From positions 2,655-66,654 of IMG/VR virus record IMGVR_UViG_3300042691_036206: 64,000 bases of DNA. One strand, given 5' to 3'. Position 1 is the stretch's first letter. Each line of letters begins with the position of its first letter. The notes beneath the pieces are model-generated. The model was not told the origin of the DNA, ran no database searches, and saw only the letters and a list, made by a program, of their open reading frames with translations. The position numbers and the translations under genes were made by a program. Shown in pieces: positions 4,715-35,270 of the stretch. The DNA is from a virus.

Positions 4715-5176
4715 ATGGGAAACTTAGGACAGACAATTGATTCTGAAGAGACACCGCCAAGCACATACGGGCAACCGATGCCGCGAGGCAGTTACTTGGT
4801 GCAAATCATCGAGAGCGAGGTGAAGGCAACGAATGGAAAGGGCGGACCTGGCTCTCAAGTCGTCATGAAAGTGCAGGTTGTGGACGGACCGTATAAGGGC
4901 CGAACAGCCCGTGGACGATTCACTCTCACCAATACGAGCGAAAAGGCCGCCAAGATTGGCAAGGCGGATCTATCGGGCATCGGCGTCGCTTGCGGAAAAC
5001 CGCATTACGACGACACTCGGTTAGTTCACAACATCACCTTCGAGGCGTTCATCGATGTCGAGGGGGAGTGGAACGTCTTCAAGCGAGCCAACTGGAGGAA
5101 AACGGCGGGAGCAGCCCCGGCGCCAGCAGCGGCCTCCAAGGGCGTTCCGCTCTCAGACGATGATATCCCGTTCTAG
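4715..5176 (+). CDS. DUF669-type ssDNA-binding protein
   Basis: PRGSYLVQI...GPYKGR; acidic DDDIPF C-terminus; GGAGG RBS before ATG 4715; sits between AAA_24 and helicase. Confidence 0.8.
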   Translation: MGNLGQTIDSEETPPSTYGQPMPRGSYLVQIIESEVKATNGKGGPGSQVVMKVQVVDGPYKGRTARGRFTLTNTSEKAAKIGKADLSGIGVACGKPHYDDTRLVHNITFEAFIDVEGEWNVFKRANWRKTAGAAPAPAAASKGVPLSDDDIPF

Positions 5177-5185
5177 TCGAGGGTT

Positions 5186-6886
5186 GTGGAGTTACGCGGT
5201 TATCAAAGAGAGAGCGTTTTAGCCTCCTGGGATTGGTTCCGAAAGAACCCCCAGGGGGCACCTTTGATTGTCCTGCCGACAGGTGCGGGCAAAAGCCTGG
5301 TCGCTGCCGAGCTGGCAAAGCAGGTCGCGAGCAAGGGCGGCGACAGGCGGGTTCTCATCCTCGCCCACAGGCGTGAGCTGCTCTCGCAGAATTACGAGAA
5401 GCTCTCCCTTCTCATGCCTTGGGGCCGACTCGGGCTCTATTCTGCTGGGTTGAATCGTCGGGATACCGCGGCACAGATCGTCGTCGGAGGTGTTCAGTCC
5501 GTCTACAAGAGGGCCGCCGAACTCGGTGCCTTCTCCCTGGTTCTCATCGACGAAGTGCACCTCGTTCCGCCGGATGGGGAAGGCCGGTATCGGACCCTCA
5601 TCGATGGCCTGAGAGCAGTTAATCCCGCCGTCCGCTTCCTGGGCATGACGGCGACGCCTTACCGTTTGGGCAGCGGCCTTCTTACAGCGACGGGAGACAT
5701 CTGGACCGACGTCGCCTATGAGGCGAATATTCGCGACCTCATCGACCAGGGGTATCTTGCCCCGCTGGTCTCAAAGAGCGGTCGTTCCAAGGCGAACCTA
5801 TCCACTGTTGCCATCAGGGCCGGCGAGTACGTCGCGGCCGACATGGAGCGGGCATTCAACCGCCTTGACCTCGTCGAAGCCGCACTTGAAGAGGTAGTCA
5901 AGCACGGAGTCGACAGAAGAAGTTGGCTCCTTTTCGCCTCGGGTGTTGCCCATGCAGAGACCATCGCCGCGGTTCTGAACAGGGTTGGTGTTCCATGCGG
6001 CGTTGTCACGGGCGAGACGCCACCGCTATTGCGGCAGCAGGTGTTAGATGATTTTAAGGACGGGCGATTACGGGCCCTGGTCAACGTGGATGTCCTTTCC
6101 GTCGGCTTCGACCATCCCGCCATCGACCTGATCGCCGTTCTTCGGGCCACGCAGAGCACGGCCCTCTGGGTGCAGATCTGTGGGCGAGGCTGCCGACTAT
6201 CTCCCGGCAAGGTGGATTGCCTTGTATTGGATTTTGGAGGGAATGCACTTCGCTTCGGACCGATCGACCGCATCAAGATCGCTTACCGCAAGAACCCCAT
6301 TACCGGGAAGGATGAGAGCACCGTCTCGACCGCCCCTGTGAAGGAGTGCCCTGAGTGCCGGAGCGTCATTCCGTTGTCCTCGAAGGATTGCCCAGACTGC
6401 GGACACCATTTTCCTGAGGTCATGAGGCTGAACCACGAGGCCGAGGCGTCTTCCGCTCCCATGCTCTCCGTCCCGGAGCCGCCTCTTGAAATTGAGGTCT
6501 ACAAAACGAACTACGACCGGCACAAGAGGGCCGACAAGCCGATACCGACGCTTCGGGTGGACTACTCGATCGTGATGATCGACGGCCAGGACGTGAAGAA
6601 GGTGTCCGAATGGGTCTGCCTGGAGCACGAGGGATTCGCTTACAAGAAGGCCGCCGATTGGTGGCGAGTGAGAGCCGGCGACGAAGACGCGGTAGCGCCC
6701 GAGACCATCGAGGAGGCCCTTACCCGAGTTGCTGAGCTTCGCAACCCCAAGCGTCTTCGCATTCAACGCGACGGCAAATTCTGGCGGGTCCTGAAAGTCC
6801 TGGAGTACCACGTCGACGGCGAGGGAGGCGACAACGCCGCCCAGGAGGAAGAGGAGTTGATGGCTCTCACGGGCGTGAATATCTAA
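5186..6886 (+). CDS. SF2 DEAD/DEAH-box helicase with Zn ribbon
   Basis: LPTGAGKS, DEVH, MTATP, QICGRGCR, CPEC..CPDC. Confidence 0.92.
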   Translation: MELRGYQRESVLASWDWFRKNPQGAPLIVLPTGAGKSLVAAELAKQVASKGGDRRVLILAHRRELLSQNYEKLSLLMPWGRLGLYSAGLNRRDTAAQIVVGGVQSVYKRAAELGAFSLVLIDEVHLVPPDGEGRYRTLIDGLRAVNPAVRFLGMTATPYRLGSGLLTATGDIWTDVAYEANIRDLIDQGYLAPLVSKSGRSKANLSTVAIRAGEYVAADMERAFNRLDLVEAALEEVVKHGVDRRSWLLFASGVAHAETIAAVLNRVGVPCGVVTGETPPLLRQQVLDDFKDGRLRALVNVDVLSVGFDHPAIDLIAVLRATQSTALWVQICGRGCRLSPGKVDCLVLDFGGNALRFGPIDRIKIAYRKNPITGKDESTVSTAPVKECPECRSVIPLSSKDCPDCGHHFPEVMRLNHEAEASSAPMLSVPEPPLEIEVYKTNYDRHKRADKPIPTLRVDYSIVMIDGQDVKKVSEWVCLEHEGFAYKKAADWWRVRAGDEDAVAPETIEEALTRVAELRNPKRLRIQRDGKFWRVLKVLEYHVDGEGGDNAAQEEEELMALTGVNI

Positions 6887-26999: not shown

Positions 27000-28388
27000 C
27001 TATTCGCGACTCGCTCTCACCACTTCAGCGGGGAAATTCAAACGAGTCGTCCATTCACGATCTTCGATGTCTTCGAGTACTTCCCACTCTGGCGGGACGG
27101 GCTTGCCCTCCGACGCCGGGGGGACACCGTCGTAAACGTGGAGGAAGGGGATCGAGAACTTGAAAGGGCCATCTGGGAAGTCGGCATAGCCCTCAATGAA
27201 GTCCTTGCCCTTCTCAGGGCAAGCGCGACTGAGCCGCATCAATTCATCTGGCGACACGTTGGCCCAGTTTTTCACCGTGGTGTTTGCCTTGTCTGTCCTG
27301 GGTGCCGTCCAGGCCATGCCGGTGTAGACAGGATTCACGACCTCCAGCACATCGCAGCTTCCGAGGTACGCCGAGGCCCACTTCGCCATGTCCGGAGATC
27401 CGCACTTCATGAACGCCTTGAAGGCGAGAAGCGCTGCGATTTCTTCGGCAACGTTTTTTCCGTACTGCTCAGCGAGACCGAGGATTTCGTGCAACGTGAC
27501 CACAGGGCACATTCCACTTTTCCTCCCACGACGGCAAATTTTCAAAAGACCTTCCAGCGGCACCATCGATGCGATTTCGTCGCAGCCGAACCAATGTCGT
27601 GTCTGCGTGACGCGGGAGAGCCCGTAATCGGCGATGGTGTCGAGAGCAAAAGAGAACAGGCCCGATTGCACGCTGGCGTAGCGGTCGACCCAGCGGAAGA
27701 CGTTCCAACCCTTGCCCGTGAGAAGGGGCTCCAGGAAGCTCGCCTTTTTTGGGGCTTTCTCTGACAGGGCGGCGTATACGGACAACTGCATCAGTTTGGT
27801 CGCGACCGTTGCCTGTACGTCCCTGCTGGTATCGCCAGCGTGGCCCAGAGGGGCGTAAACATCGCCCACGCCTGGAACCAACTTCCCCGCCTCCGAAATT
27901 AAACGATGGTCCTTTGCCAACCGCACAACATCCGCCAGGCGCCACTTCTTCGGAGCGAAGTGATGGAGGATATGAAGTGCCGCGATGAGGATGATCTGGG
28001 CCCAAGCATCGAAGAAGTTGTTCTTTCCGCGATTCTCCTGCGGGGCCATCTTTTGGGCGAAGCGGACTCGCTCGGTCTGCGTCGTAATGTCCGCCGCCAG
28101 GTCCATTGCCGTCCCACCCTCACAGTGAACTTGGAACTCATTTACCTCGACTCCGTTAGCCTTCAGCAGCGGCGTGAGACTTCCGTCGGCATCCACGGCA
28201 GAGCCGGAGTCGCCATTTCTCGCAGCCGCTCTGAAGAGCATTGCGGCCAGCGAGCTTTTGCCGCAGCCGGGAGCGCCGGTGAGGAGGAAGCCCAGCGACT
28301 GCAAGGCGCTGATGACCCACCGGCCGCAGAACGGAACGGATAGCGGTGGAACTTCCAGAGGCCTTTCGCGAAAAATATTTCTAAACAT
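27000..28388 (-). CDS. type IV coupling protein (TraD/TrwB/VirD4-like ATPase)
   Basis: LTGAPGCGKS Walker A, NNFFDAWAQ, CDEIAS Walker B, RGRKSG, EQYG..VAEEI, AKWASAYLG, VSPDELMRL; next to the relaxase. Confidence 0.8.
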   Translation of the reverse strand: MFRNIFRERPLEVPPLSVPFCGRWVISALQSLGFLLTGAPGCGKSSLAAMLFRAAARNGDSGSAVDADGSLTPLLKANGVEVNEFQVHCEGGTAMDLAADITTQTERVRFAQKMAPQENRGKNNFFDAWAQIILIAALHILHHFAPKKWRLADVVRLAKDHRLISEAGKLVPGVGDVYAPLGHAGDTSRDVQATVATKLMQLSVYAALSEKAPKKASFLEPLLTGKGWNVFRWVDRYASVQSGLFSFALDTIADYGLSRVTQTRHWFGCDEIASMVPLEGLLKICRRGRKSGMCPVVTLHEILGLAEQYGKNVAEEIAALLAFKAFMKCGSPDMAKWASAYLGSCDVLEVVNPVYTGMAWTAPRTDKANTTVKNWANVSPDELMRLSRACPEKGKDFIEGYADFPDGPFKFSIPFLHVYDGVPPASEGKPVPPEWEVLEDIEDREWTTRLNFPAEVVRASRE

Positions 28389-28698
28389 TGGAGTCTCCTT
28401 TCTTCAGCCCATCGCCGCGAATGACGATCTGTCCGACGCCGTGAGGCTTCGGTCGGCTCCACTCCGTGATGGCCTGTAAGATCGAAATCAAAACGAATTC
28501 AAAAAACACCACGCTTGCGATGACGATCGCCCCCATCACAAACGGATGCCTTTGAATGAACGTGGGGTCGATGGCCCTACTGATTGCCAGCGGCGCCACG
28601 ATCGCCACAGCGAGAGTGACCCACACTGACAACTCCAGAACGACTCTGAAGAAGAACCACTTCAGCGGCCTGAGAAAAATCACCCGGAGAATCTCCAT
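28381..28698 (-). CDS. membrane protein (2 TM), possible separate anchor for the coupling protein
   Basis: Two TM segments; overlaps the start of the T4CP, which has no TM of its own. Confidence 0.6.
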   Translation of the reverse strand: MEILRVIFLRPLKWFFFRVVLELSVWVTLAVAIVAPLAISRAIDPTFIQRHPFVMGAIVIASVVFFEFVLISILQAITEWSRPKPHGVGQIVIRGDGLKKGDSNV

Positions 28699-28718
28699 GA
28701 CGCACCTTCCCTTTCTGG

Positions 28719-30158
28719 TTAATGGCGATTTCTGCGTTCTTGCCTGCGACTCTGAATCAAGGGCTCATCCTGTCCCTTCACGTAAACAGCGACGTTATGC
28801 TTCTCCGCTGCGATGCGGAGCTTCTGAAGTTCTTTCGAGGTCATCGCGGTCGCGGCGGCTTTCGAGAGGACGACACGATCGCCGCTTTTGAGCTTGATAT
28901 GGGGCTCTCTCGCTCGCTGATACGCATACTCGGCGCGTAGCAGGGCTTCTCTGAGGGTGTGAAACGGATTGCCTTGGTACAGCGATCGGATCGCGGCTCT
29001 GTGAGCTTCTGGGCGCGATCGCTTCTTGATGTCATCCAGAAAAGCGGGAACGCTCTTCACCCGGTAATCACGTGAAGCTCCGAGGTTGACGACCTTGACC
29101 GCCGCACCGATGACTCGCAACGGAAGCACGACAAACTCATCAAGGAGCCTTTGCAACCGACCGGGTGTCTTGAATTCTTTTTCTGGTTGGCTTTTTGCCG
29201 CGACCGTTGCCGCTGTCTTTCTAAACGAAGGTTTCTGCGCACCCTTCGCGGCATCCTCTTTTGCGGAAGGCTCGTCTTTGATCCAGCCCTGGCTCCGCCC
29301 ATGTTGCAACAGAGCTTGTCCCGCGAGCGGCTTCCACGTCTCGACCAGTTCCGCACGTGTATACGCAACGGGCGGGCACGTGCGAGTGTTCAATGCGGCG
29401 TAGGCTTTCGCCTGCGGTGTCGGCTCGATGCCCTTGCTCTCCAGGTAGTTCTTGATTTGTTCGCTGCGTTTACCGACCAACGCCATCAGCTCAGGGGGCA
29501 CGCCTTGCACCACAGCCACGCCGCGATTGAAGCCGATGTTCCACTTAAATTCCTGGGCGAGTTCTTTACCGAGGGCCGCTTGGAACGCCATCTGATACAG
29601 CTTGTCGATGCGGTAGTACTGGCGGAGGTCGCCAAGCTTCAACGTCTTGCCGGTTGCGGTAACGCCGTACCGTGAGAGCCGACGGTGAATGTGCCAATGA
29701 ATCCCGCCACCGTTGTCGGTCGCGTGGATGACGCGGCGGACCACTGGAATCGCAGGAACGATTTTCTTTCCCTGGGCGCCAGAGCGTACGTGCCAACCCT
29801 TCGCCATCACTACCTTGAAGGCCACGTCATCCGCTCGCTTCAAGCAGTCCGCCATCTTCTGGAACGCCGCGGGGCCTTCCATTACCAGGACCACGAGGAA
29901 CATTGCGTTTACTGACTTGTCCGTGCCGCTGACCATCTCGAAGGGGCGCGTGTCTTTGCGGTTCTTCTGAACGCGGATGGCCGGACTTCCGTCTCCCCGC
30001 TTCTCCTGAGCGTGAAGGCGGTTTTGCTCTGGATCGTTGGCGTCGGTGAAGCCAATCAGAGCGGCCGGGCCCATGAAGTCGGCCCCACCACCATGCTCGA
30101 TTGCGTCCTGGTTGTACTTCTCAGAGAGGGAGTACTTCTTCGTCGTGCGAGTTATCAC
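28719..30158 (-). CDS. MOBF (TrwC-family) relaxase, divergent, without helicase domain
   Basis: FEMVSGTDKSV (D.TFSAPKSV equivalent), IHATD....IHWHIH 3H motif, FQAALGKEL, GVPPELM...KRSEQI, AALNTR. Confidence 0.8.
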   Translation of the reverse strand: MITRTTKKYSLSEKYNQDAIEHGGGADFMGPAALIGFTDANDPEQNRLHAQEKRGDGSPAIRVQKNRKDTRPFEMVSGTDKSVNAMFLVVLVMEGPAAFQKMADCLKRADDVAFKVVMAKGWHVRSGAQGKKIVPAIPVVRRVIHATDNGGGIHWHIHRRLSRYGVTATGKTLKLGDLRQYYRIDKLYQMAFQAALGKELAQEFKWNIGFNRGVAVVQGVPPELMALVGKRSEQIKNYLESKGIEPTPQAKAYAALNTRTCPPVAYTRAELVETWKPLAGQALLQHGRSQGWIKDEPSAKEDAAKGAQKPSFRKTAATVAAKSQPEKEFKTPGRLQRLLDEFVVLPLRVIGAAVKVVNLGASRDYRVKSVPAFLDDIKKRSRPEAHRAAIRSLYQGNPFHTLREALLRAEYAYQRAREPHIKLKSGDRVVLSKAAATAMTSKELQKLRIAAEKHNVAVYVKGQDEPLIQSRRQERRNRH

Positions 30159-30565
30159 GGTTGCACCGCCTTCTCCTCCGCCATGAACTTCGCAATGTCG
30201 CCTGAGAGATAGACCTCATTCACGAGCGCCACCGCCGTAGCGGTGTCGAGAGATTCCCCGCGACGTTGTTGTGTCGAGAGCAGGAGCACGGCCAGCTCGG
30301 CCAACAGGGCTTTCATCTCTGCGGGCTGAATCCCCACGTGAGGCGGCGGCAGTGGCGCGTTTCCGTCCGGCAAGCAGCGGTGTTCGAGGGCCCACGAAAT
30401 GAGATCGTGGCCGAGCGTGCTCTCGGTGGTCTCAAGTTCCTTCGCCAACGCTCGAAATGCTGCCTTCATCTTGAGCGGCACTCGCACGCTGATAGTCGTT
30501 GTCGGCTCACTGTTGCCGATGATGGTTTCACGCGGGTCAGGCTTGATGGTGTCATCACTGTCCAT
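30155..30565 (-). CDS. RHH relaxosome accessory protein (TrwA/MobC-like)
   Basis: TTISVRVPLKMKAAFRALAKELETTESTLGHDLI; coupled to the relaxase by ATGA-type overlap. Confidence 0.65.
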   Translation of the reverse strand: MDSDDTIKPDPRETIIGNSEPTTTISVRVPLKMKAAFRALAKELETTESTLGHDLISWALEHRCLPDGNAPLPPPHVGIQPAEMKALLAELAVLLLSTQQRRGESLDTATAVALVNEVYLSGDIAKFMAEEKAVQP

Positions 30566-30776
30566 GGTCGCTACTCCGAAAGCGGTTGAGGAAGCGGGTG
30601 AAGATTGTCGGCGAGGACTGCGGGGCGGGCGACGAGGACCAAAGAAAGTCTTCGAGGCGCTTGTGAGCTTCGATCTCTTCCGGCGTCCGGCGAGCGTCGA
30701 AGAACGCCTGGATGGGATCGTCGGGCTCGTAGGGAGCCTGGTAGCCCTCGAAAAAGTCCCTGATGGGATCTGACAT
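30555..30776 (-). CDS. hypothetical protein
   Basis: 73 aa; internal DPI..FF repeat; RBS present. Confidence 0.45.
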   Translation of the reverse strand: MSDPIRDFFEGYQAPYEPDDPIQAFFDARRTPEEIEAHKRLEDFLWSSSPAPQSSPTIFTRFLNRFRSSDHGQ

Positions 30777-30973
30777 GGGTGTTTGCCTTTCAGTTTGCGT
30801 AAACCTGTGGCAGCTTTCGACCGGCCGAATTCTTACCACCGAATGCAAGAAAGCCAAGTTTTGGAGTGAGCAGTTTTGAGCGCAACTCTAGGCGCATCAT
30901 CGAGATAATTTTCTTGAGATTTATTTCTGTAACTCTAAGAGGGCCAATGGCTTAAAGGGCATTCGGTTGGCCG

Positions 30974-31071
30974 GGCGAGGACATCAAGATTAGCGTTTCG
31001 GCCTGTGGAATGTGTTGCCCCGGCGAGGACATTAAGAACAGCGTTCGCCCGCCTCGGCGAGGACATGAAGA
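30974..31071. repeat. three GGCGAGGACATNAAGA direct repeats; candidate oriT/ori region
   Basis: Copies at 30974, 31022, 31056; AT-rich tract at about 30900-30940; intergenic, upstream of the relaxase operon. Confidence 0.7.
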
Positions 31072-31176
31072 TCGATGGGTGGAGAGGTGGTCATCTGTCA
31101 ATGAACCTTTTTGAAAACCTCTCCTGAACTGTCGTGTGCCAATCCTGGCATCCCATCCGTGGGCATCCATTCTGGA

Positions 31177-31542
31177 CTAGAAGCGATCGCCGACGTCGTT
31201 GCCGTCGTCACTTCCACTTTCGCCACCGCCGCCGACGTTGGTTCCGTTCTGCTGAGCGAGCCAGATCCACGCCATGCGTGAACACTCAGCGACAACGAGC
31301 AAATCGTCCCGACCGAAAGTTGTCGCCGACTTCCACTGTCCTTGGCCGTCCTTGTAGTTCCGCGTCATCGTGACGCTGTACCACACGCCTTCCTTGCTCT
31401 CGTTCTCCCAGATTGTCGCCTTGATGCGACCGCATCGGATCTCGTGAGCGGGAGGTCGACGACCATTCCCTTGATCGCGGTTCTGCTGCTGCTGCGGGGC
31501 GTCGTTGCGACCGACCGTCTGCGTTCTCTTTTGAGGAGCCAT
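31177..31542 (-). CDS. putative ssDNA-binding protein of mobile elements
   Basis: IKATIWEN...YSVT.TRNYKD..GQWKSATTFGRDDLL; acidic tail ending in F. Confidence 0.65.
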   Translation of the reverse strand: MAPQKRTQTVGRNDAPQQQQNRDQGNGRRPPAHEIRCGRIKATIWENESKEGVWYSVTMTRNYKDGQGQWKSATTFGRDDLLVVAECSRMAWIWLAQQNGTNVGGGGESGSDDGNDVGDRF

Positions 31543-31681
31543 GACGGCACCTCTCCTTTCTTGAAAGTTCGTGACATGGAGATGTTCCAGACACAAGGAA
31601 AAGAAAAACAGCGGCCTCGCTCCGAGCGAAATGCCGCTGAGAAATCCACGGCCCGGCATCCGTTCCGGGGGTTGTGCGTTG

Positions 31682-32425
31682 CTACACCGCGAGGGAGCGA
31701 TCCGGCAGCATGAGACCATTCAGGCGAATGGTTTGCGAGACGAACACTTGCGGCGCCGTGATGGCACGTTCCTTCAGAACTTCCGTGAAGGCATTGAAAA
31801 GGCCCCAGCCTGTGCGGGCCCGGAACTCTTCATGTGGCGGATTCTCCCACTGCTCGCAGACCTTGGGAATCTGAAGCGTCGAGATGATTCCGCGGTGAAA
31901 GGCCTGAAGGATGATGTGACTTGCCGCCTCCGGCGTGAGTTCCATCTCCATCATTCGCTTGATGCGGTGTTCCTCGGCATCCTTGAACGACGCAAGCGAC
32001 GTGACTGCGGTACCGATCGCCGTGCCGAAGGCCCGCATGCCATTGATCGTGTGTTTTCTGCGGACGAGCAACTCGGCTCGGAATGCCAAATTGTCACAGC
32101 AAAAAACTCTTGATCCAGCCGCGAAGCCGAGCGGAAAGGACTTGTCGGTACTGTTGCGGATCCCGACCGAAAGACTGACGCCCTGAGCGAGCGGAGTTGT
32201 CAGGTCGAGAACGCCGAAGAAGCGTGCTCCATCACGAGCGAGCGCGAGCTTTTGACTCGCGATCTGGTATCCCGCTCCTGAGAGCGTTTCACGAACAGTC
32301 GCTAGCACTGTCGTGTGGGCCGTAGGATGCCACCGCCCTTCGGGCGGTGGAGTCCTGCAAGCCTTCAGCTCGTCGAGCGTGACGAGCCGCCCGCCCGCGT
32401 GAAGCACGAGCGCTCCTTGAGACAT
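31682..32425 (-). CDS. DUF932 domain protein
   Basis: GIRNSTDKSFPLGFAAGSRVFCCDNLAF...RKHT...TGWGLFNAFTEVLK. Confidence 0.85.
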   Translation of the reverse strand: MSQGALVLHAGGRLVTLDELKACRTPPPEGRWHPTAHTTVLATVRETLSGAGYQIASQKLALARDGARFFGVLDLTTPLAQGVSLSVGIRNSTDKSFPLGFAAGSRVFCCDNLAFRAELLVRRKHTINGMRAFGTAIGTAVTSLASFKDAEEHRIKRMMEMELTPEAASHIILQAFHRGIISTLQIPKVCEQWENPPHEEFRARTGWGLFNAFTEVLKERAITAPQVFVSQTIRLNGLMLPDRSLAV

Positions 32426-32810
32426 TGCAATCCCTCTTGGGTGAGGGGCTGGCGCACTTCTGAAAACCTTCAGTGCTGATGACCAACCTCTCTCCCGGTC
32501 GGGGACAGAGGTCGCGTGATGTGTCTTCTACCCAACAAGCTCAACGTTGACACAGGTTGCAATGACAGGCAAGGGGAGGCATAAGCCGGATGTGGTGAGC
32601 GCGGGACGGTCACCGACAAAAGTGGAATGGAGCGGCTGCTTGCAAGAAGAACCTTTGGAACTCCCAGCCGCGAGAGCTAAGTACCATAAGAAAAACTGCC
32701 GTGAAAGAAGGGCATTCCTCCCTCCACGGCACTCAGGGCTCACCGCCACCGGACGCCGGTATTCCTTGGATTAGTCATTCTAATCCTCCGCTTCCCGGCG
32801 CCCTGAGAAA

Positions 32811-33473
32811 CTACCTCCGCCCAGCCTCATACCGCAAGAGGTCCGCAATCTCTTTCGGCGTCTCGATGAAGACCGGCTCCGGCGTAAACTTCTTCCGCAC
32901 ACATCGTTTCCAATCGACCGGGGCTTTCTTCAGCAGGCGGCGGCATTCATTTAGGTGTCGGATGAGCGAGAAGAGGCCGTCCCTAACGCCGGCGAACGGC
33001 AAAAATGGAAACTCCCGCACCGTGGTTTCGCAGGCGCTAAGAGTTTCCTTTGCTAACTCGGTAAACTCCCTTTTCAACCGTCGCTGGGCCTCGGGATGGA
33101 GCCTCACGGAGACCTTCTCCGTCTGGCGATTGACGCTGATGGAATAGCCTTCGAGATGGAGCGGGGCTTCTCGAATATCCTTCCAAGCTTCGCGGTTGAA
33201 GAAGGACGAGCGGCCTTTGGTTGCGATGATGATGCAGAGTTGCCCGCAGCGGAGGTACTTCACCTTCGCGAACCCAGCCTTTGAACGGCGATACTGTTTT
33301 TCTTTGCTGAGATGCGCGTCGTACAGCATCAGCAACCTAGCGTCGATTATGAGCGGATCCTTATTATCGGGAATCCATGACGTGCTGTAAAACACATACT
33401 TTTTCGTCAGTAAATTGCACGCCAGATAGCGAACCATCGCATCGGGTGATTTAATAATATACTGGACGGTCAT
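32811..33473 (-). CDS. hypothetical protein of mobile-element type
   Basis: YVFY...IP..KDP..ID.RL...Y...SK....RR.KAG.A.V.YLR...ATKG pattern recalled from Planctomycete mobile elements; start uncertain. Confidence 0.6.
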   Translation of the reverse strand: MTVQYIIKSPDAMVRYLACNLLTKKYVFYSTSWIPDNKDPLIIDARLLMLYDAHLSKEKQYRRSKAGFAKVKYLRCGQLCIIIATKGRSSFFNREAWKDIREAPLHLEGYSISVNRQTEKVSVRLHPEAQRRLKREFTELAKETLSACETTVREFPFLPFAGVRDGLFSLIRHLNECRRLLKKAPVDWKRCVRKKFTPEPVFIETPKEIADLLRYEAGRR

Positions 33474-33489
33474 AGAGGCATGATGACAT

Positions 33490-33514
33490 AAAAAAGGCGG
33501 GGTTGCCCCCGCCT
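33490..33514 (-). terminator. intrinsic terminator on the minus strand
   Basis: AGGCGGGG-GCAA-CCCCGCCT followed by a T-run. Confidence 0.7.
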
Positions 33515-33697
33515 CCATACCTTAGATTGTCCTGCCTTGCCATGGCTCACCGATCCGCATCCAACCTTAGCCCGCCAAGCCGAGCTAATCCGTACCTAAC
33601 CTTGAGTCACCTTACCGCGATCGGATAAATTCAGGCACCGGGGAGGTTGATTTTGGGCAGAGTGACTCAAAAGTTACGCGATCGCACAGATTCTCTG

Positions 33698-34503
33698 TTG
33701 GGGGGATTCTGTCTCTCGACAAGGCTCCCCCCAGGCCCACCGACATAACCTTCTCCGCACGTGTTGGTGCTTTCCAACCCTTCCAGGTGACACCAACCCT
33801 ACGGCCATCCTCCTCGGTGAGCACTGTCGTTCTTCCAGAGCGGAAACGACGGAATTGACTGCCCTGCCATCCGTCGAGCCTATAAACCTCCTTTCTAAAA
33901 CCTTGGGCCCCGCCTTTAGCCGGACAACCTCCTACAGAACTTTGCGCGTCCTACCCGTGCTCGCTCTCCCCTCTGCCAGAACCTTCTGTCCTTGAAGGGC
34001 AGAGGCTCCCGAATTGTCGACGGCTGTCATGTGGTGGTCACGTCGTCGAGCGGCGTATTCGACCGCACGGCGGGCGGGTGCTCCAGAAGTTCCCCGCTAG
34101 AACACTCACCCCTCGGTAGCCCGAGGGCTTTCACCCTTGGAACGCACAAGACAGGGTTACCGCCCCGCCCGCGTTCTGAACTATTTGGCACCGTCTCCGT
34201 CCACACGTACTCGATTGCAGTTGCCTGCGTGACCCTTTGCGCTACTTGCCCGTCATCCCTCGCGGGTGACTGGTTCCAGGGTCGAGCGAGGTTGAGGCGA
34301 CCACGTGGGTCATCCGCCCCCTCGGCGGCGCAATGTATATTTGGCTATACAAGAACCACTGGTCTTGCATACTCCAGTAGACATTACGCCGCTTCAGCCG
34401 CCATCCCATCGTCGCACGCGAATCGGTATTGATTCTTCCCCACTGAACAAGGGCCTCTCGACCCATTCAGCGAGCCCGATTTGGTGGTGAAGGGGCGTCG
34501 GTG
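33698..34503 (-). ncRNA. large (~810 nt) structured non-coding RNA candidate
   Basis: No credible ORF; 5'/3' closing helix; more than ten hairpins, several with GNRA loops; G-U pairs favour the minus strand; upstream TTCCCA-16-TATCCT promoter. Confidence 0.7.
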
Positions 34504-34508
34504 TGCCC

Positions 34509-34536
34509 AGGATAGGCCGGGGCCGAGATATGGGAA
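34509..34536 (-). promoter_or_regulatory. putative promoter of the large ncRNA
   Basis: TTCCCA-16 nt-TATCCT; the predicted start coincides with the first base pairs of the closing helix. Confidence 0.45.
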
Positions 34537-34550
34537 ACAGACGAAACCGG

Positions 34551-35270
34551 TCAGGACTTTGCCTTGCTGACACGCTCGTAAAGGATTCCCGCAAGGCGAC
34601 TCATTGCGTCATCAGCGTACTTATCGGCCTCCTCGCCGCCGCCGTTGTATCGCCGGAACACCTCGCGGATACGGACCGTTGGATCCTTAATCCCGTCGAT
34701 CTCCTTGGACTTTTGCTGCACGATAAGAGCCGAGCACCGAGCGGCCGTCCACACGTCGTACAGACGGCTCCAGTGGAGGTTGCAATAGTCTTTTGCGGAA
34801 TAGCCCATGACGTGAAAGACGCCGTGACTCGATGCGATCATTCGCAATTCATTGGTGGAGGTCGTGCGGTATTTCTTATTGTTCCTCAATTCTTCGAACT
34901 TCTTCGCTTCAAATGCGTAAAGGCTATTCTGATCCCCGCCGCGGCTTTCCTTCTCCGCTAAGACCATCAGGATTAGAGGGTCTACATCGAACTCCTTCGC
35001 GGTCTTAACAATGATGTCCCCAAGCGTGGCATCATCCACTTCACGGTACTCCGTGATCGTCTTCACGACCGTGACTTTCTCCAGCAGCGCGTCCCTCGCT
35101 CGCATGGCATGCACCGATGCAACTTCAAAGGCAAGATCGACAAGACGAGAAACGCAGAGGCAGATACACAAGAAGAAAGTAAGTTTTAGGCCGAAGATGA
35201 TCAGCTTGAACTTTCGTGCGTGGCGTTGTGATTTGTTTTTTTCTGTGGCTTCCATGACGTGTTTTTCCAT
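34551..35270 (-). CDS. lytic transglycosylase (SLT-like) with N-terminal TM segment
   Basis: AKEFDVDPLILMVLAEKESRGG, SSHGVFHVMG, RRYNGG. Confidence 0.75.
   Translation of the reverse strand: MEKHVMEATEKNKSQRHARKFKLIIFGLKLTFFLCICLCVSRLVDLAFEVASVHAMRARDALLEKVTVVKTITEYREVDDATLGDIIVKTAKEFDVDPLILMVLAEKESRGGDQNSLYAFEAKKFEELRNNKKYRTTSTNELRMIASSHGVFHVMGYSAKDYCNLHWSRLYDVWTAARCSALIVQQKSKEIDGIKDPTVRIREVFRRYNGGGEEADKYADDAMSRLAGILYERVSKAKS

What the first reader, a model, noticed from the sequence alone, without database searches (positions are those of the whole stretch)
33698..34503. Candidate giant (~810 nt) ornate non-coding RNA on the minus strand
Seen: about 1 kb without a credible ORF in an otherwise gene-dense phage. 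Read on the minus strand, the 5' end CACCGACGCC-CCTTCACC (34503-34486) can pair with GGAGAAGG-TTA-TGTCGGTG (33756-33738), about 750 nt away. A TTCCCA-16-TATCCT promoter places the start at that helix. The interior is almost all helices: CGCTGAAT-GGGTC-GAGA-GGCCC-..-GTTCAGTG; GCGGCGTAATGT...ACATTGCGCCGC enclosing further arms; GTCA-CCC-GCGA-GGG-ATGAC; GCAG-GCAA-CTGC; GGGT-GAAA-GCCC; CCTCGG-GCTA-CCGAGG; CCTCTGCC...GGCAGAGG; GTTGGTG...CACCAAC; and a 3' hairpin GGGGGG..TGTC-GAGA-GACA..CCCCCC. The GNRA loops and G-U pairs fit the minus strand. Established: phages carry large ornate RNAs of this size class (GOLLD ~800 nt, ROOL ~600 nt) with unknown function. Inference: this is either a divergent member of such a class or a new class; I cannot assign it from memory.
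Basis: partly seen in the sequence, partly recalled or inferred. Interest (0 to 1): 0.9.

Follow-up and report, generated by a model that had tools for sequence, protein, structure and literature searches.

The report
Permuted group II ribozyme in a phage
The gene-free kilobase encodes a real, large folded RNA, but it belongs to an already described class (circularly permuted group II ribozymes) rather than a new one; this phage-borne version has lost the branch-point domain and sits in front of its partner protein gene.

Summary
Window 34505-33698 (minus strand) is an ORF-free, about 810-nt structured RNA. It folds better than shuffles (z -5.1). Across six homologues, 104 of 200 consensus pairs carry compensatory changes, against 49 +/- 4.5 in shuffles.

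It is not GOLLD or ROOL, and it is not a new class. It starts with a textbook 34-nt group II domain 5, and its two ends pair like a split domain 4. Its core matches a planctomycete plasmid RNA in which Rfam's group II D5-D6 model scores above threshold upstream of that core. That is the D5-first order of circularly permuted (CP) group II ribozymes ("T-large", Roth et al. 2021).

The gene directly downstream (32811-33473) is a distant homologue of AcpG, the known companion of that class (hhalign 94.9%, E 4e-8). Its best full-length structural matches are group II intron maturases (Z 7.3-8.6).

The unusual points are the virus record, a vestigial domain 6 (25-33 nt between D5 and the conserved GCGAC, against 80-112 nt between D5 and GGGCGA in four plasmid relatives), and unconserved first two intron nucleotides. 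Back-splicing by branching is therefore probably lost here.

This scan has reported CP group II ribozymes and the maturase-like AcpG fold before, on other DNA.

The parts
33698..34505 (-). Conserved structured RNA, about 808 nt: a circularly permuted group II-like ribozyme
   Evidence: nhmmer finds homologues in 4 of 5 loci that carry the partner gene. On the 6-sequence alignment A6, 200 pairs are 87.2% paired and 104 show changes on both sides. Fold z is -5.1.
34489..34505 (-). 5' strand of the terminal helix (5' half of a split domain 4)
   Evidence: Pairs with 33737-33753 in the MFE and in the consensus. 4 of the 13 pairs in helices 1-2 change on both sides.
33737..33753 (-). 3' strand of the terminal helix (3' half of the split domain 4)
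   Evidence: Passages of PMC13717195 describe 5'D4/3'D4 pairing in known CP group II introns.
34475..34487 (-). 5' strand of a second long-range helix that encloses D5 through D3
   Evidence: Helices 3-4 pair it with 33806-33818. 6 of 12 pairs change on both sides.
33806..33818 (-). 3' strand of the second long-range helix
34440..34473 (-). Domain 5 (34 nt): 9-bp lower helix with CGC triad at positions 2-4 and a G.U at position 3, 2-nt 3' bulge, 5-bp upper helix, GAGA loop
   Evidence: Read from the sequence. Model R2, built only from plasmid relatives, has its single hit in the whole 64-kb window here (34472-34441, E 4.7e-6). 11 of 14 pairs covary and 98.8% of cells pair.
34420..34435 (-). 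Short hairpin at the place of domain 6 (a vestigial D6, with no clear bulged adenosine in the window)
   Evidence: Only 25-33 nt lie between D5 and GCGAC in the six phage-type RNAs. The four plasmid relatives have 80-112 nt between D5 and GGGCGA, with a full D6. R2 aligns D5 only.
34411..34417 (-). 5'-splice-site-like motif. GCGAC is invariant in 6 of 6; the two bases before it are not conserved.
   Evidence: It corresponds to GGGCGA(C/U) in the four plasmid relatives and GGGCGAC in Thermus pTT8.
34018..34403 (-). Domain 1-like large domain, closed by 34403-34395 with 34026-34018
   Evidence: In closing helix 7, 6 of 9 pairs covary. Coordinates.
34005..34206 (-). Most conserved core inside the D1-like domain (source of model R1)
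   Evidence: R1 matches plasmid pK2D_1 (L040 2049-2302) over its full length, E 2.2e-5, downstream of that plasmid's D5-D6.
34325..34392 (-). Stem with an extension of variable length (about 100 nt longer in the window than in three homologues)
   Evidence: helix 8.
33969..34006 (-). Domain 2-like hairpin whose loop carries a conserved GAAGGUU
   Evidence: Helix 25; alignment.
33820..33961 (-). Domain 3-like branched domain containing the near-invariant GGCAGGGCAGU
   Evidence: Helices 26-33. The motif is also present in L040.
33755..33805 (-). Hairpin arm between the two 3' closing strands
   Evidence: Helices 34-37.
33702..33730 (-). 3' hairpin (G-run/C-run)
   Evidence: Helix 38.
33520..33697 (-). 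Lineage-specific tail between the ribozyme and the terminator, with no homologue in any other locus
   Evidence: blastn-short against the window and all loci found only itself plus chance 13-18-mers.
33493..33516 (-). Intrinsic-terminator-like hairpin plus U-run, 20 nt before the partner gene's ATG
32811..33473 (-). Partner gene: AcpG-like protein (220 aa) predicted to fold like a truncated reverse transcriptase/maturase
   Evidence: 22 homologues. The family has 1,201 representatives. hhalign against the AcpG profile gives 94.9%, E 4.2e-8. AF2 pLDDT is 93.8. The best full-length structural matches are group II maturases.

Best explanation
[quoted passage not shown] The order of elements is: 5' strand of a split domain 4, catalytic domain 5, a vestigial domain 6, a 5'-splice-site-like GCGAC, domains 1, 2 and 3, then the 3' strand of domain 4. 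The gene directly behind it encodes a diverged AcpG. That protein looks like a reverse transcriptase reduced to palm plus thumb and, by inference, lacks the YxDD aspartates. It most likely serves the RNA as a maturase-type folding and binding partner.

Shown here: the RNA is structured and conserved; D5 is canonical; the domain order is permuted; the protein is AcpG-related and RT-like in fold; and RNA and gene travel together.

Inferred: plasmid relatives with an intact D6, a GGGCGA(C/U) motif and 12-41-nt linkers back-splice, as published members do. In this phage lineage the branch-point domain and the first two intron bases have decayed. The RNA therefore probably no longer branches or makes circles. 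It keeps the catalytic core, either for hydrolytic self-cleavage at the D6/D1 junction or for work as a non-splicing RNA-protein particle. The benefit to the phage is unknown.
For: Domain 5. All six phage-type RNAs have the exact 34-nt D5 layout: 9-bp helix with (A/C)GC at positions 2-4, a 2-nt 3' bulge, a 5-bp helix and a GNRA loop. 11 of 14 D5 pairs covary. A strict D5 pattern scan of 12 loci on both strands found 9 hits. That is exactly one in each of the 9 loci carrying the partner gene, always on its strand and 0.74-1.36 kb upstream. There were none in L013, L014 or L038. R2, built only from plasmid relatives, hits the window once, at 34472-34441 (E 4.7e-6).

Rfam. RF00029 (group II D5-D6) scores 49.4 and 47.6 bits (gathering score 40) in plasmid relatives L040 and L039, 0.95-1.26 kb upstream of the partner gene. 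It scores 28.6 and 29.2 bits in phage-type L033 and L037.

Core homology. Model R1, from the phage-type core, matches L040 2049-2302 over its full length (E 2.2e-5), downstream of that D5-D6.

Splice-site features in relatives. The four plasmid relatives show the D6 strand UUCU-A-YYCA-AU, linkers of 12, 41, 15 and 21 nt, and GGGCGA(C/U). Thermus pTT8, a published member, reads the same way. Sections 8, 9 and 17 of PMC8637638 define the class.

End pairing. The 5'/3' pairing matches the 5'D4/3'D4 pairing described in passages of PMC13717195.

Protein. hhalign of the 41-member family profile against a 29-member AcpG profile gives 94.9%, E 4.2e-8 over 165 columns. VIA-align gives Z 8.6 (8h2h_D, 186 aligned) and Z 8.0 (8t2r_D, 8t2s_D). 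The Foldseek-independent search puts 7uim_D (Z 7.5, 180 aligned) and 6me0_C (Z 7.3, 180 aligned) at the top. A separately modelled Thermus-type AcpG also has 6me0_C as its best match (Z 8.2, 193 aligned).

Vestigial D6. 25-33 nt lie between D5 and GCGAC in the phage type, against 80-112 nt between D5 and GGGCGA in the plasmid relatives. The two bases before GCGAC are GU, AC, AG, CA, UA and AG.
Against: RF00029 gives no match at E <= 10 in the window itself. No Rfam group II D1-D4 model matched any locus.

R1 matched only 2 of 10 sources. The published Thermus RNA scored only E 0.44, and L039, L041 and L042 did not match. R2 reached E <= 1 in only 3 of the 6 phage-type sources.

The P1/P2 leader hairpins described for the published class are not present between the 5' end and D5. 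This may therefore be a separate sublineage.

The fold matches are middling (Z 7.3-8.6, below or at the tool's caution line of 8). No Foldseek row reached E <= 0.001. None of 41 family members matches RVT_1 or any maturase Pfam model at E <= 1. The family profile finds no reverse transcriptase in the PDB by sequence. The first two AcpG comparisons were negative (probability 0.2% and 1.6%).

Loss of D6 rests on six sequences. Two of them (L034, L035) can still form a 4-bp hairpin followed by an unpaired A, so a minimal branch site is not excluded.

A terminator stands between the RNA and the partner gene in the window. That does not fit simple co-transcription.
Confidence: 0.85

Rival explanations
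1. It is a fully active back-splicing CP group II ribozyme. A minimal domain 6 (a 3-5-bp hairpin followed by an unpaired A and YAC) supplies the branch point, and a 9-12-nt segment before GCGAC is released as a very small circle.
For: Five of six phage-type RNAs share an A-YAC motif 8-11 nt before GCGAC, after a short hairpin. L034 and L035 can draw a bulged A. Plasmid relative L039 has a canonical D6 with a linker of only 12 nt. Published circles are predicted to range from 15 to 86 nt (passage of PMC8637638).
Against: The first intron nucleotide, G in the plasmid relatives and in the published consensus GGGCG, is G, A, A, C, U, A in the six phage-type RNAs. The hairpin is not conserved in shape in the window, L033 or L037. 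No covarying exon-binding pairing was found for the segment before GCGAC, either with 6-mers in at least 4 of 6 sequences or with 5-mers in at least 5 of 6. R2's D6 and splice-site positions do not align.
Confidence: 0.2
2. The RNA acts mainly as a very long structured 5' leader that controls expression of the partner gene in cis. Its group II ancestry is incidental.
For: The RNA lies directly upstream of the partner gene on the same strand in 10 of 10 loci (window, L033-L037, L039-L042). In L034 and L035 it ends about 12 nt before the ORF. In the window a terminator lies 20 nt before the ATG, which could act as an attenuator.
Against: The catalytic D5, with triad, bulge and GNRA loop, is kept intact by compensatory changes in every member. 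A leader does not need that. For the wider class, Roth et al. report AcpG genes in divergent, convergent or distant positions relative to the RNA (section 17 of PMC8637638). Cis control therefore cannot be the class's general role.
Confidence: 0.1
3. It is a new class of ornate RNA unrelated to group II introns, and the D5-like hairpin is convergent.
For: No Rfam family reaches threshold in the window. There is no blastn match in the phage or plasmid collections.
Against: The D5 layout is exact in 6 of 6 RNAs. Relatives score above RF00029's gathering score with D6 and a branch A. The core is homologous to those relatives. The partner is AcpG-related.
Confidence: 0.03
4. The structure works at the DNA level, as a single-strand origin, an oriT-type site or a replication origin of the mobilisable element.
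For: The record carries a TrwC-type relaxase, a coupling protein and DUF932 close by. The plus strand also folds better than shuffles (z -3.57).
Against: GNRA loops and G-U pairs fit only the minus-strand RNA reading. The minus strand folds better. Homology is to a ribozyme class with demonstrated RNA activity (abstract of PMC8637638).
Confidence: 0.02

Closest known systems
Circularly permuted (CP) group II ribozymes, 'T-large' RNA (Roth, Weinberg, Vanderschuren, Murdock, Breaker 2021, PMC8637638; cryo-EM work in PMC13717195 and bioRxiv 10.64898/2025.12.30.696962)
   Same: D5 comes first, followed by D1-D3. The 5' and 3' ends pair as a split D4. A GCGAC core of the GGGCG(AC) 5'-splice-site motif is present. 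Size is in the 800-900-nt class. There is no ORF inside the RNA. It lives on mobile DNA and has an AcpG-family gene beside it.
   Different: There is no canonical D6 with a branch adenosine. The first two intron bases are not conserved. At most 9-12 nt remain where the published class has a 15-86-nt linker. There are no P1/P2 leader hairpins before D5. It sits in a virus record; the word 'phage' does not occur in the main text of any of the three papers I searched. The probable host phylum is Planctomycetota, which Roth's main text does not name (0 occurrences).
[quoted passage not shown] 2021, section 17)
   Same: Profile-profile homology (94.9%, E 4.2e-8, 165 columns). The order of secondary-structure elements is the same in the two AF2 models. 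It is adjacent to the RNA.
   Different: Sequence identity is about 16%, and single-sequence comparisons fail. In this subfamily the gene is always directly downstream on the same strand (10 of 10 loci), whereas Roth et al. report mixed orientations. Roth et al. state that no homology to a known protein class was detected. Here both subfamilies have group II maturases as their best full-length structural match.
Canonical group II introns with an intron-encoded reverse transcriptase/maturase
   Same: Catalytic D5 architecture, a large D1 scaffold, and a partner protein with an RT palm/thumb-like fold.
   Different: The domain order is permuted. The protein gene lies outside the RNA rather than in D4. 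The protein is about half the size, and the hairpin where YxDD would sit reads Y-x-R-x-G (alignment; the positional equivalence is inferred). There are no endonuclease or DNA-binding domains. No flanking exons of a host gene are evident.
HYER, hydrolytic group II-derived ribozymes (seen only in the listing and in passages of the bioRxiv preprint; the rest is recalled)
   Same: A group II-derived RNA proposed to act by hydrolysis rather than branching, with no ORF inside it.
   Different: As I recall it, HYER is not circularly permuted and acts without a protein. No sequence or model comparison was made here.
GOLLD and ROOL RNAs
   Same: Large, ornate, found in phages, no ORF.
   Different: No Rfam match to either family, at gathering score in the window or at E <= 10 in the region. 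The architecture here is that of a group II ribozyme.

Membership tests
CP group II ribozyme (T-large) | Domain 5 with catalytic triad, 2-nt bulge and GNRA loop | tested here: met
   Window 34473-34440 has the exact 34-nt layout. R2 hit at E 4.7e-6. 11 of 14 pairs covary. The triad is CGC in 5 of the 6 phage-type RNAs and AGC in 1 (for L033-L037; the window by hand).
CP group II ribozyme (T-large) | D5(-D6) placed 5' of D1-D4 | tested here: met
   D5 lies 32 nt from the 5' closing strand, and about 700 nt of conserved structure follow it. In relative L040, the RF00029 hit at 1620-1725 precedes the R1 core hit at 2049-2302.
CP group II ribozyme (T-large) | Domain 6 with a bulged branch-point adenosine | tested here: not met
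   Only a 5-bp hairpin without a bulged A is present in the window, and D5 to GCGAC spans 25-33 nt in the six phage-type RNAs. The feature is present in the four plasmid relatives.
CP group II ribozyme (T-large) | Reversed splice sites: 3' NU, then a 15-86-nt linker, then 5' GGGCG | tested here: not met
   GCGAC is invariant, but the two preceding bases vary (GU, AC, AG, CA, UA, AG). No covarying exon-binding pairing was found. The plasmid relatives meet the feature with 12-41-nt linkers.
CP group II ribozyme (T-large) | 5' and 3' ends pair to rebuild domain 4 | tested here: met
   34505-34489 pairs with 33753-33737. Compare passages of PMC13717195.
CP group II ribozyme (T-large) | P1 and P2 leader hairpins and their pseudoknots | tested here: not met
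Pseudoknots were not searched for.
CP group II ribozyme (T-large) | Sequence/structure homology to published members | tested here: inconclusive
   R1 against Thermus pTT8 gave E 0.44, on the right strand and in the right region. The link to the published class runs through plasmid relatives that share the D6 and GGGCGAC motifs with pTT8.
CP group II ribozyme (T-large) | Self-processing into a branched RNA and a circle | not testable with these tools
   No RNA run holds the stretch.
AcpG (TTHC007) family | Sequence homology to TTHC007-type proteins | tested here: met
   hhalign of profile A7 against profile A8 gives 94.9%, E 4.2e-8. Weaker set-ups failed.
AcpG (TTHC007) family | Encoded next to a CP group II RNA | tested here: met
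   10 of 10 loci examined.
Group II intron maturase / reverse transcriptase | RT palm-thumb fold | tested here: inconclusive
   Best full-length matches have Z 7.3-8.6 with 180-186 residues aligned. An independent AcpG model gives Z 8.2 with 193 aligned. These Z values are middling by the tool's own note, and there is no sequence-level support.
Group II intron maturase / reverse transcriptase | Catalytic YxDD motif | tested here: not met
   The invariant residues of the 41-member alignment are D47, Y76, R78 and R181, and the beta-hairpin 74-87 reads Y-x-R-x-G. That this hairpin is the motif C position is inferred, not superposed residue by residue.
GOLLD / ROOL / OLE / HEARO / raiA | Match to the Rfam covariance model | tested here: not met
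   0 matches at gathering score in the window. Only STnc40 and PrrB/RsmZ, both below threshold, appear at E <= 10 in 33300-34800.
Canonical (unpermuted) group II intron | Order D1-D6 with the protein ORF inside D4 | tested here: not met
   D5 is at the 5' end and no ORF lies inside the RNA.

The most novel reading that the evidence does not exclude
A phage-borne lineage of permuted group II ribozymes has shed the branch-point domain and the splice-site guanosines. It keeps, under purifying selection, the catalytic domain 5, the D1 scaffold and a catalytically dead partner protein derived from a reverse transcriptase. That would make it a domesticated group II ribonucleoprotein that no longer splices itself. 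It would instead use its active site hydrolytically or in trans on other nucleic acids, for the benefit of the phage or plasmid.
Probability: 0.25. Interest if true: 0.8.

Novelty: new variant of a known kind. Interest (0 to 1): 0.5.

Why it matters
[quoted passage not shown] Roth et al. wrote that intron-encoded-protein ORFs are never seen in or near them, and that AcpG resembles no known protein class (passages; section 17).

Two points here bear on that question. First, the partner family is large: 1,201 representatives at E <= 0.001. In two independently modelled subfamilies it looks like a stripped reverse transcriptase/maturase. That would restore the ribozyme-plus-maturase logic to the permuted class and gives a direct binding test.

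Second, a lineage in virus-like records keeps the catalytic core while losing the branch site and the splice-site bases. This natural experiment separates what the core does from circle-making.

Neither point was found in the open-access texts I could search. Both have been noted before by this scan on other DNA.

Tried and rejected
Rfam. There was nothing at gathering score in the window. Only two irrelevant sub-threshold rows appeared in the region.

DNA similarity. blastn of the 1,081-nt stretch against the phage and plasmid collections found no match.

Single-protein locus searches. The two flanking proteins, searched in viral contigs, returned none. Two genome-contig scans returned none.

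Upstream-gene route. Alignment A1 of the upstream gene gave 10 viral loci, of which only 1 (L002) held the RNA. The metagenome scan gave 19 loci, of which only 3 were true relatives of the upstream gene (L013, L014, L015) and none held the RNA. This showed that the RNA goes with the downstream gene, not the upstream one.

RNA motif patterns. Two patterns searched in viral contigs found only the L002 contig again.

Profile and model searches. An nhmmer profile of A4 detected only the D5 stretch of L039 among the plasmid loci. R1 did not reach L039, L041 or L042. R2 did not reach L034, L035, L036 or L038 at E <= 1.

Exon-binding search. A scan for covarying exon-binding pairing found nothing. 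The method was strict and the sample was six sequences, so this is weak negative evidence.

Protein searches without result. Pfam, PHROGs, PADLOC and NCBIfam gave no family for the partner protein. A PDB sequence search returned only Dynactin at E 1.3. In the Atlas, the nearest named cluster was RVT_1 at score 0.80, which is only a lead.

AcpG. The first comparisons were negative. Had I stopped there I would have wrongly called the protein a new partner family. A scan note made me build an AcpG profile.

Expression. No RNA holder is listed for the stretch.

Laid DNA contigs of four runs. The pieces are near-identical. One contig carries two differences, at 34390 and 34403. The one at 34403 turns a U-G pair of the D1 closing helix into the C-G pair seen in the other five homologues. 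There were no joints and nothing about transcripts.

Promoter.

Supplements. Data S1 of Roth et al. could not be read because supplements are closed. It may already list planctomycete, cyanobacterial or viral members, or AcpG genes of this subfamily.
Full report
WHAT IS THERE. The window is part of a 66.6-kb IMG/VR virus record. The record carries tail-like genes together with a TrwC-type relaxase, a coupling protein and DUF932. Between the stop of a 239-aa gene (34551) and the ATG of a 220-aa gene (33473), both on the minus strand, lie about 1,080 nt without a credible ORF. An intrinsic-terminator-like hairpin sits at 33516-33493. The plus strand gives z -3.57. Rfam has no match at gathering score anywhere in the window and nothing relevant at E <= 10 in the region. 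blastn finds nothing in the phage or plasmid collections.

FINDING RELATIVES. I first followed the upstream gene, which has 25 homologues. Of 10 viral loci that encode a relative, only one (L002) has the RNA (nhmmer E 1e-40). In L013 and L014 the upstream protein is 69% identical, yet both the RNA and the downstream gene are missing from this position. There the upstream gene is followed after about 190 nt by the DUF932 gene. In L002/L012 the order is upstream gene, RNA, downstream gene, DUF932. So the RNA travels with the downstream gene.

That protein has 22 close homologues. An alignment of them retrieved 5 viral loci. nhmmer finds the RNA directly upstream of the gene, on the same strand, in 4 of the 5 (E 3e-44 to 4e-19).

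IS IT A STRUCTURED RNA? On the six-sequence alignment A6, the RNAalifold consensus has 200 pairs.
- 87.2% of cells form standard pairs, against 73.2 +/- 0.8 after shuffling partners and 38-44% with partners slid by 1-3 columns.
- 104 pairs show changes on both sides, against 49.0 +/- 4.5 in shuffles (0 of 500 as high) and 24-35 when slid.
- An earlier, cruder alignment gave 73 of 138 pairs with compensatory changes.

The structure was derived from the same alignment, so the slid control flatters it somewhat. The excess of double changes is still large. There is no codon periodicity, and the neighbouring gene serves as a positive control.

WHAT IS IT? Relaxed Rfam searches of the homologous loci gave weak hits of RF00029, the group II intron D5-D6 model, at the 5' part of the RNA in L033 and L037 (28.6 and 29.2 bits, gathering score 40).

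Read by hand, all six RNAs carry the exact 34-nt architecture of group II domain 5. It has a 9-bp lower helix with (A/C)GC at positions 2-4, a G.U at position 3 in four of the six, a 2-nt bulge on the 3' strand, a 5-bp upper helix and a GNRA loop. In the window this is 34473-34440. The D5 helix has 11 of 14 covarying pairs.

[quoted passage not shown] About 700 nt of conserved structure follow it. That is the domain order of the circularly permuted group II ribozymes of Roth et al. 2021. I read the outline, sections 8, 9 and 17 and searched passages of that paper. A 2026 NAR paper, of which I saw passages only, describes pairing of 5'D4 with 3'D4 in these RNAs.

THE BRIDGE TO THE PUBLISHED CLASS. 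tblastn with the downstream protein found distant relatives (26-31% identity) on four kinds of plasmid: Leptolyngbya, a planctomycete (pK2D_1), Calothrix and Bacillus cereus. Each has 1.4-1.7 kb without annotation directly upstream on the same strand.
- RF00029 scores above its gathering threshold in two of them: L040 at 49.4 bits and L039 at 47.6 bits. The hits lie 0.95-1.26 kb upstream of the gene.
- A strict D5 pattern scan of 12 loci on both strands gave exactly one hit in each of the nine loci that carry the gene, always on its strand. It gave none in L013, L014 or Thermus L038, whose D5 loop is longer.
- After D5, all four plasmid RNAs show a D6 ending UUCU-A-YYCA-AU, a linker of 12, 41, 15 or 21 nt, and then GGGCGA(C/U). 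The RNA of Thermus pTT8, a published member, shows the same signature. The consensus 5' site GGGCG and predicted circles of 15-86 nt are given in the paper.
- Covariance model R1, built from the most conserved 200 nt of the phage-type RNAs, matches pK2D_1 over its full length (E 2.2e-5) downstream of that plasmid's D5-D6. It reaches Thermus only at E 0.44 and misses the other three plasmids.
- Model R2, built only from the four plasmid RNAs, has its single hit in the 64-kb window at 34472-34441 (E 4.7e-6). Only its D5 positions align.

WHAT IS DIFFERENT HERE. In the six phage-type RNAs only 25-33 nt separate D5 from the invariant GCGAC. In the plasmid relatives 80-112 nt separate D5 from GGGCGA. 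What remains is a 3-5-bp hairpin. An unpaired A followed by YAC can be drawn in five of the six, and a proper bulged A only in L034 and L035. The two bases that correspond to the first two intron nucleotides are GU, AC, AG, CA, UA and AG. I found no covarying pairing between the segment before GCGAC and any downstream loop.

The core that builds the active site (D5, GCGAC, the D1 core) is therefore conserved. The branch site and the scissile-site bases are not. I infer that back-splicing by branching is lost in this lineage, at about 55% confidence. The alternatives left are hydrolytic cleavage or a non-splicing role. The P1/P2 leader hairpins of the published class are also absent.

In the window, a unique 180-nt tail and a terminator separate the RNA from the partner gene. 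In L034 and L035 the gap is about 12 nt.

THE PARTNER PROTEIN. It matches no family in Pfam, PHROGs, PADLOC or NCBIfam. A profile search of 1.84 billion representatives finds 1,201 relatives at E <= 0.001 and 230 at E <= 1e-30, mostly 200-300 aa. None of 41 sampled members has a Pfam match of note.

AlphaFold2 on the 22-sequence alignment gives pLDDT 93.8.
- Foldseek's seven best PDB rows are group II intron reverse transcriptases or maturases (E 1.4e-3 to 6.4e-3; none at or below 1e-3), followed by retron and DRT enzymes.
- VIA-align on Foldseek's list gives Z 8.6 (LtrA in 8h2h, 186 residues aligned) and Z 8.0 (8t2r, 8t2s), with model residues 1-200 on RT residues of about 100-425.
- The Foldseek-independent search of 48,161 chains puts 7uim_D (Z 7.5) and 6me0_C (Z 7.3) first. 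Every match longer than 150 residues is a reverse transcriptase or Prp8.

These Z values are middling by the tool's own warning.

AcpG. Comparing the close-homologue profile with the pTT8 protein gave probability 0.2%, and I first took the protein for a new partner family. A note from this scan (e1-5245320) claimed that such proteins are diverged AcpG, so I tested it. A broader profile against the single sequence still gave 1.6%. Profile against profile, using 29 AcpG homologues, gave 94.9%, E 4.2e-8 over 165 columns. The protein is therefore a distant AcpG.

An independent AlphaFold2 model of the Thermus-type AcpG (pLDDT 91.6) has the same order of secondary-structure elements. Its best match is again a group II maturase (6me0_C, Z 8.2, 193 aligned). 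The invariant residues are D47, Y76, R78 and R181. The hairpin where a reverse transcriptase would carry YxDD reads Y-x-R-x-G, so polymerase activity is unlikely. That positional equivalence is inferred.

Roth et al. state that AcpG resembles no known protein class and that intron-encoded-protein ORFs are never found in or near CP group II RNAs. My searches found no later paper on AcpG. One search returned only Roth 2021 for AcpG/TTHC007. One search returned five papers on CP group II. AcpG has 0 occurrences in PMC13717195 and in the 2026 preprint.

MECHANISM, WITH ODDS. Identity as a CP group II-family RNA with an AcpG-family partner: 0.85. The protein binds the RNA as a maturase-like cofactor: about 0.5. 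This rests on fold plus strict adjacency in 10 of 10 loci and is untested. Branching and circle formation are lost in the phage lineage: about 0.55. What the particle does for the phage is unknown. No RNA run holds the sequence. DNA contigs from other samples are near-identical, with one structure-improving U-to-C change in the D1 closing helix.

VERDICT. This is a real RNA, correctly spotted, and wrongly thought to be possibly new. It is a new variant of a known kind. It has a viral carrier, a vestigial D6, decayed splice-site bases and no P1/P2. It adds independent support for the idea, already raised by this scan on other DNA, that AcpG is a dead maturase.

Noticed in passing
window 34551-35270 (-): The 239-aa gene upstream of the RNA has an N-terminal hydrophobic stretch and conserved E-S and S-S-H-G-x-F-H motifs. 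No family in Pfam or PHROGs matches it. From recall it resembles a lytic transglycosylase-type lysis enzyme. It has 25 homologues.
   Followed up: partly
L013/L014 3681-3871 versus window 32425-34551: In the closest relative of the upstream gene (69% identity), the RNA plus partner gene is absent from this site. A 62%-identical partner protein (P0034) is nevertheless recorded on the same 61-kb contig. The module therefore occupies different places in related elements. The other site could not be read because the record is not held.
   Followed up: partly
window 33520-33697 (-): The tail between the ribozyme and the terminator is unique to this record. It contains a long-range inverted repeat of about 11 nt on each side, around 33665 and 33600.
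   Followed up: partly
L033 about 2810-2840: One homologue carries an extra AT-rich perfect hairpin of about 25 nt, inserted just before the conserved GGAGACGG core.
   Followed up: no
window 34506-34520 (-) and the same place in L033-L036: A short motif (YAACGCU or UUACGCU; UAUCCU in the window) lies 7-13 nt before the 5' closing strand in five of six RNAs. It may be a -10-like promoter element or the true 5' end of the RNA.
   Followed up: no
window 33969-34006 and 33747-33753 (-): The heptamer GAAGGUU occurs twice: in the loop of the D2-like hairpin and in the 3' closing strand. In L036 the closing-strand copy covaries with its 5' partner while the loop copy stays unchanged. The loop copy must therefore pair, if at all, with something else.
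   Followed up: no
window 27000-32425 (-): A TrwC-type relaxase (479 aa), a TrwB-type coupling protein and DUF932 lie next to tail-like genes in a record classed as viral.
   Followed up: partly
L038 (Thermus pTT8) 5150-6050 (-): The published Thermus CP group II RNA gets no RF00029 hit at E <= 1, and no CP group II or T-large family showed up in Rfam 15. Routine annotation will therefore miss this class.
   Followed up: partly
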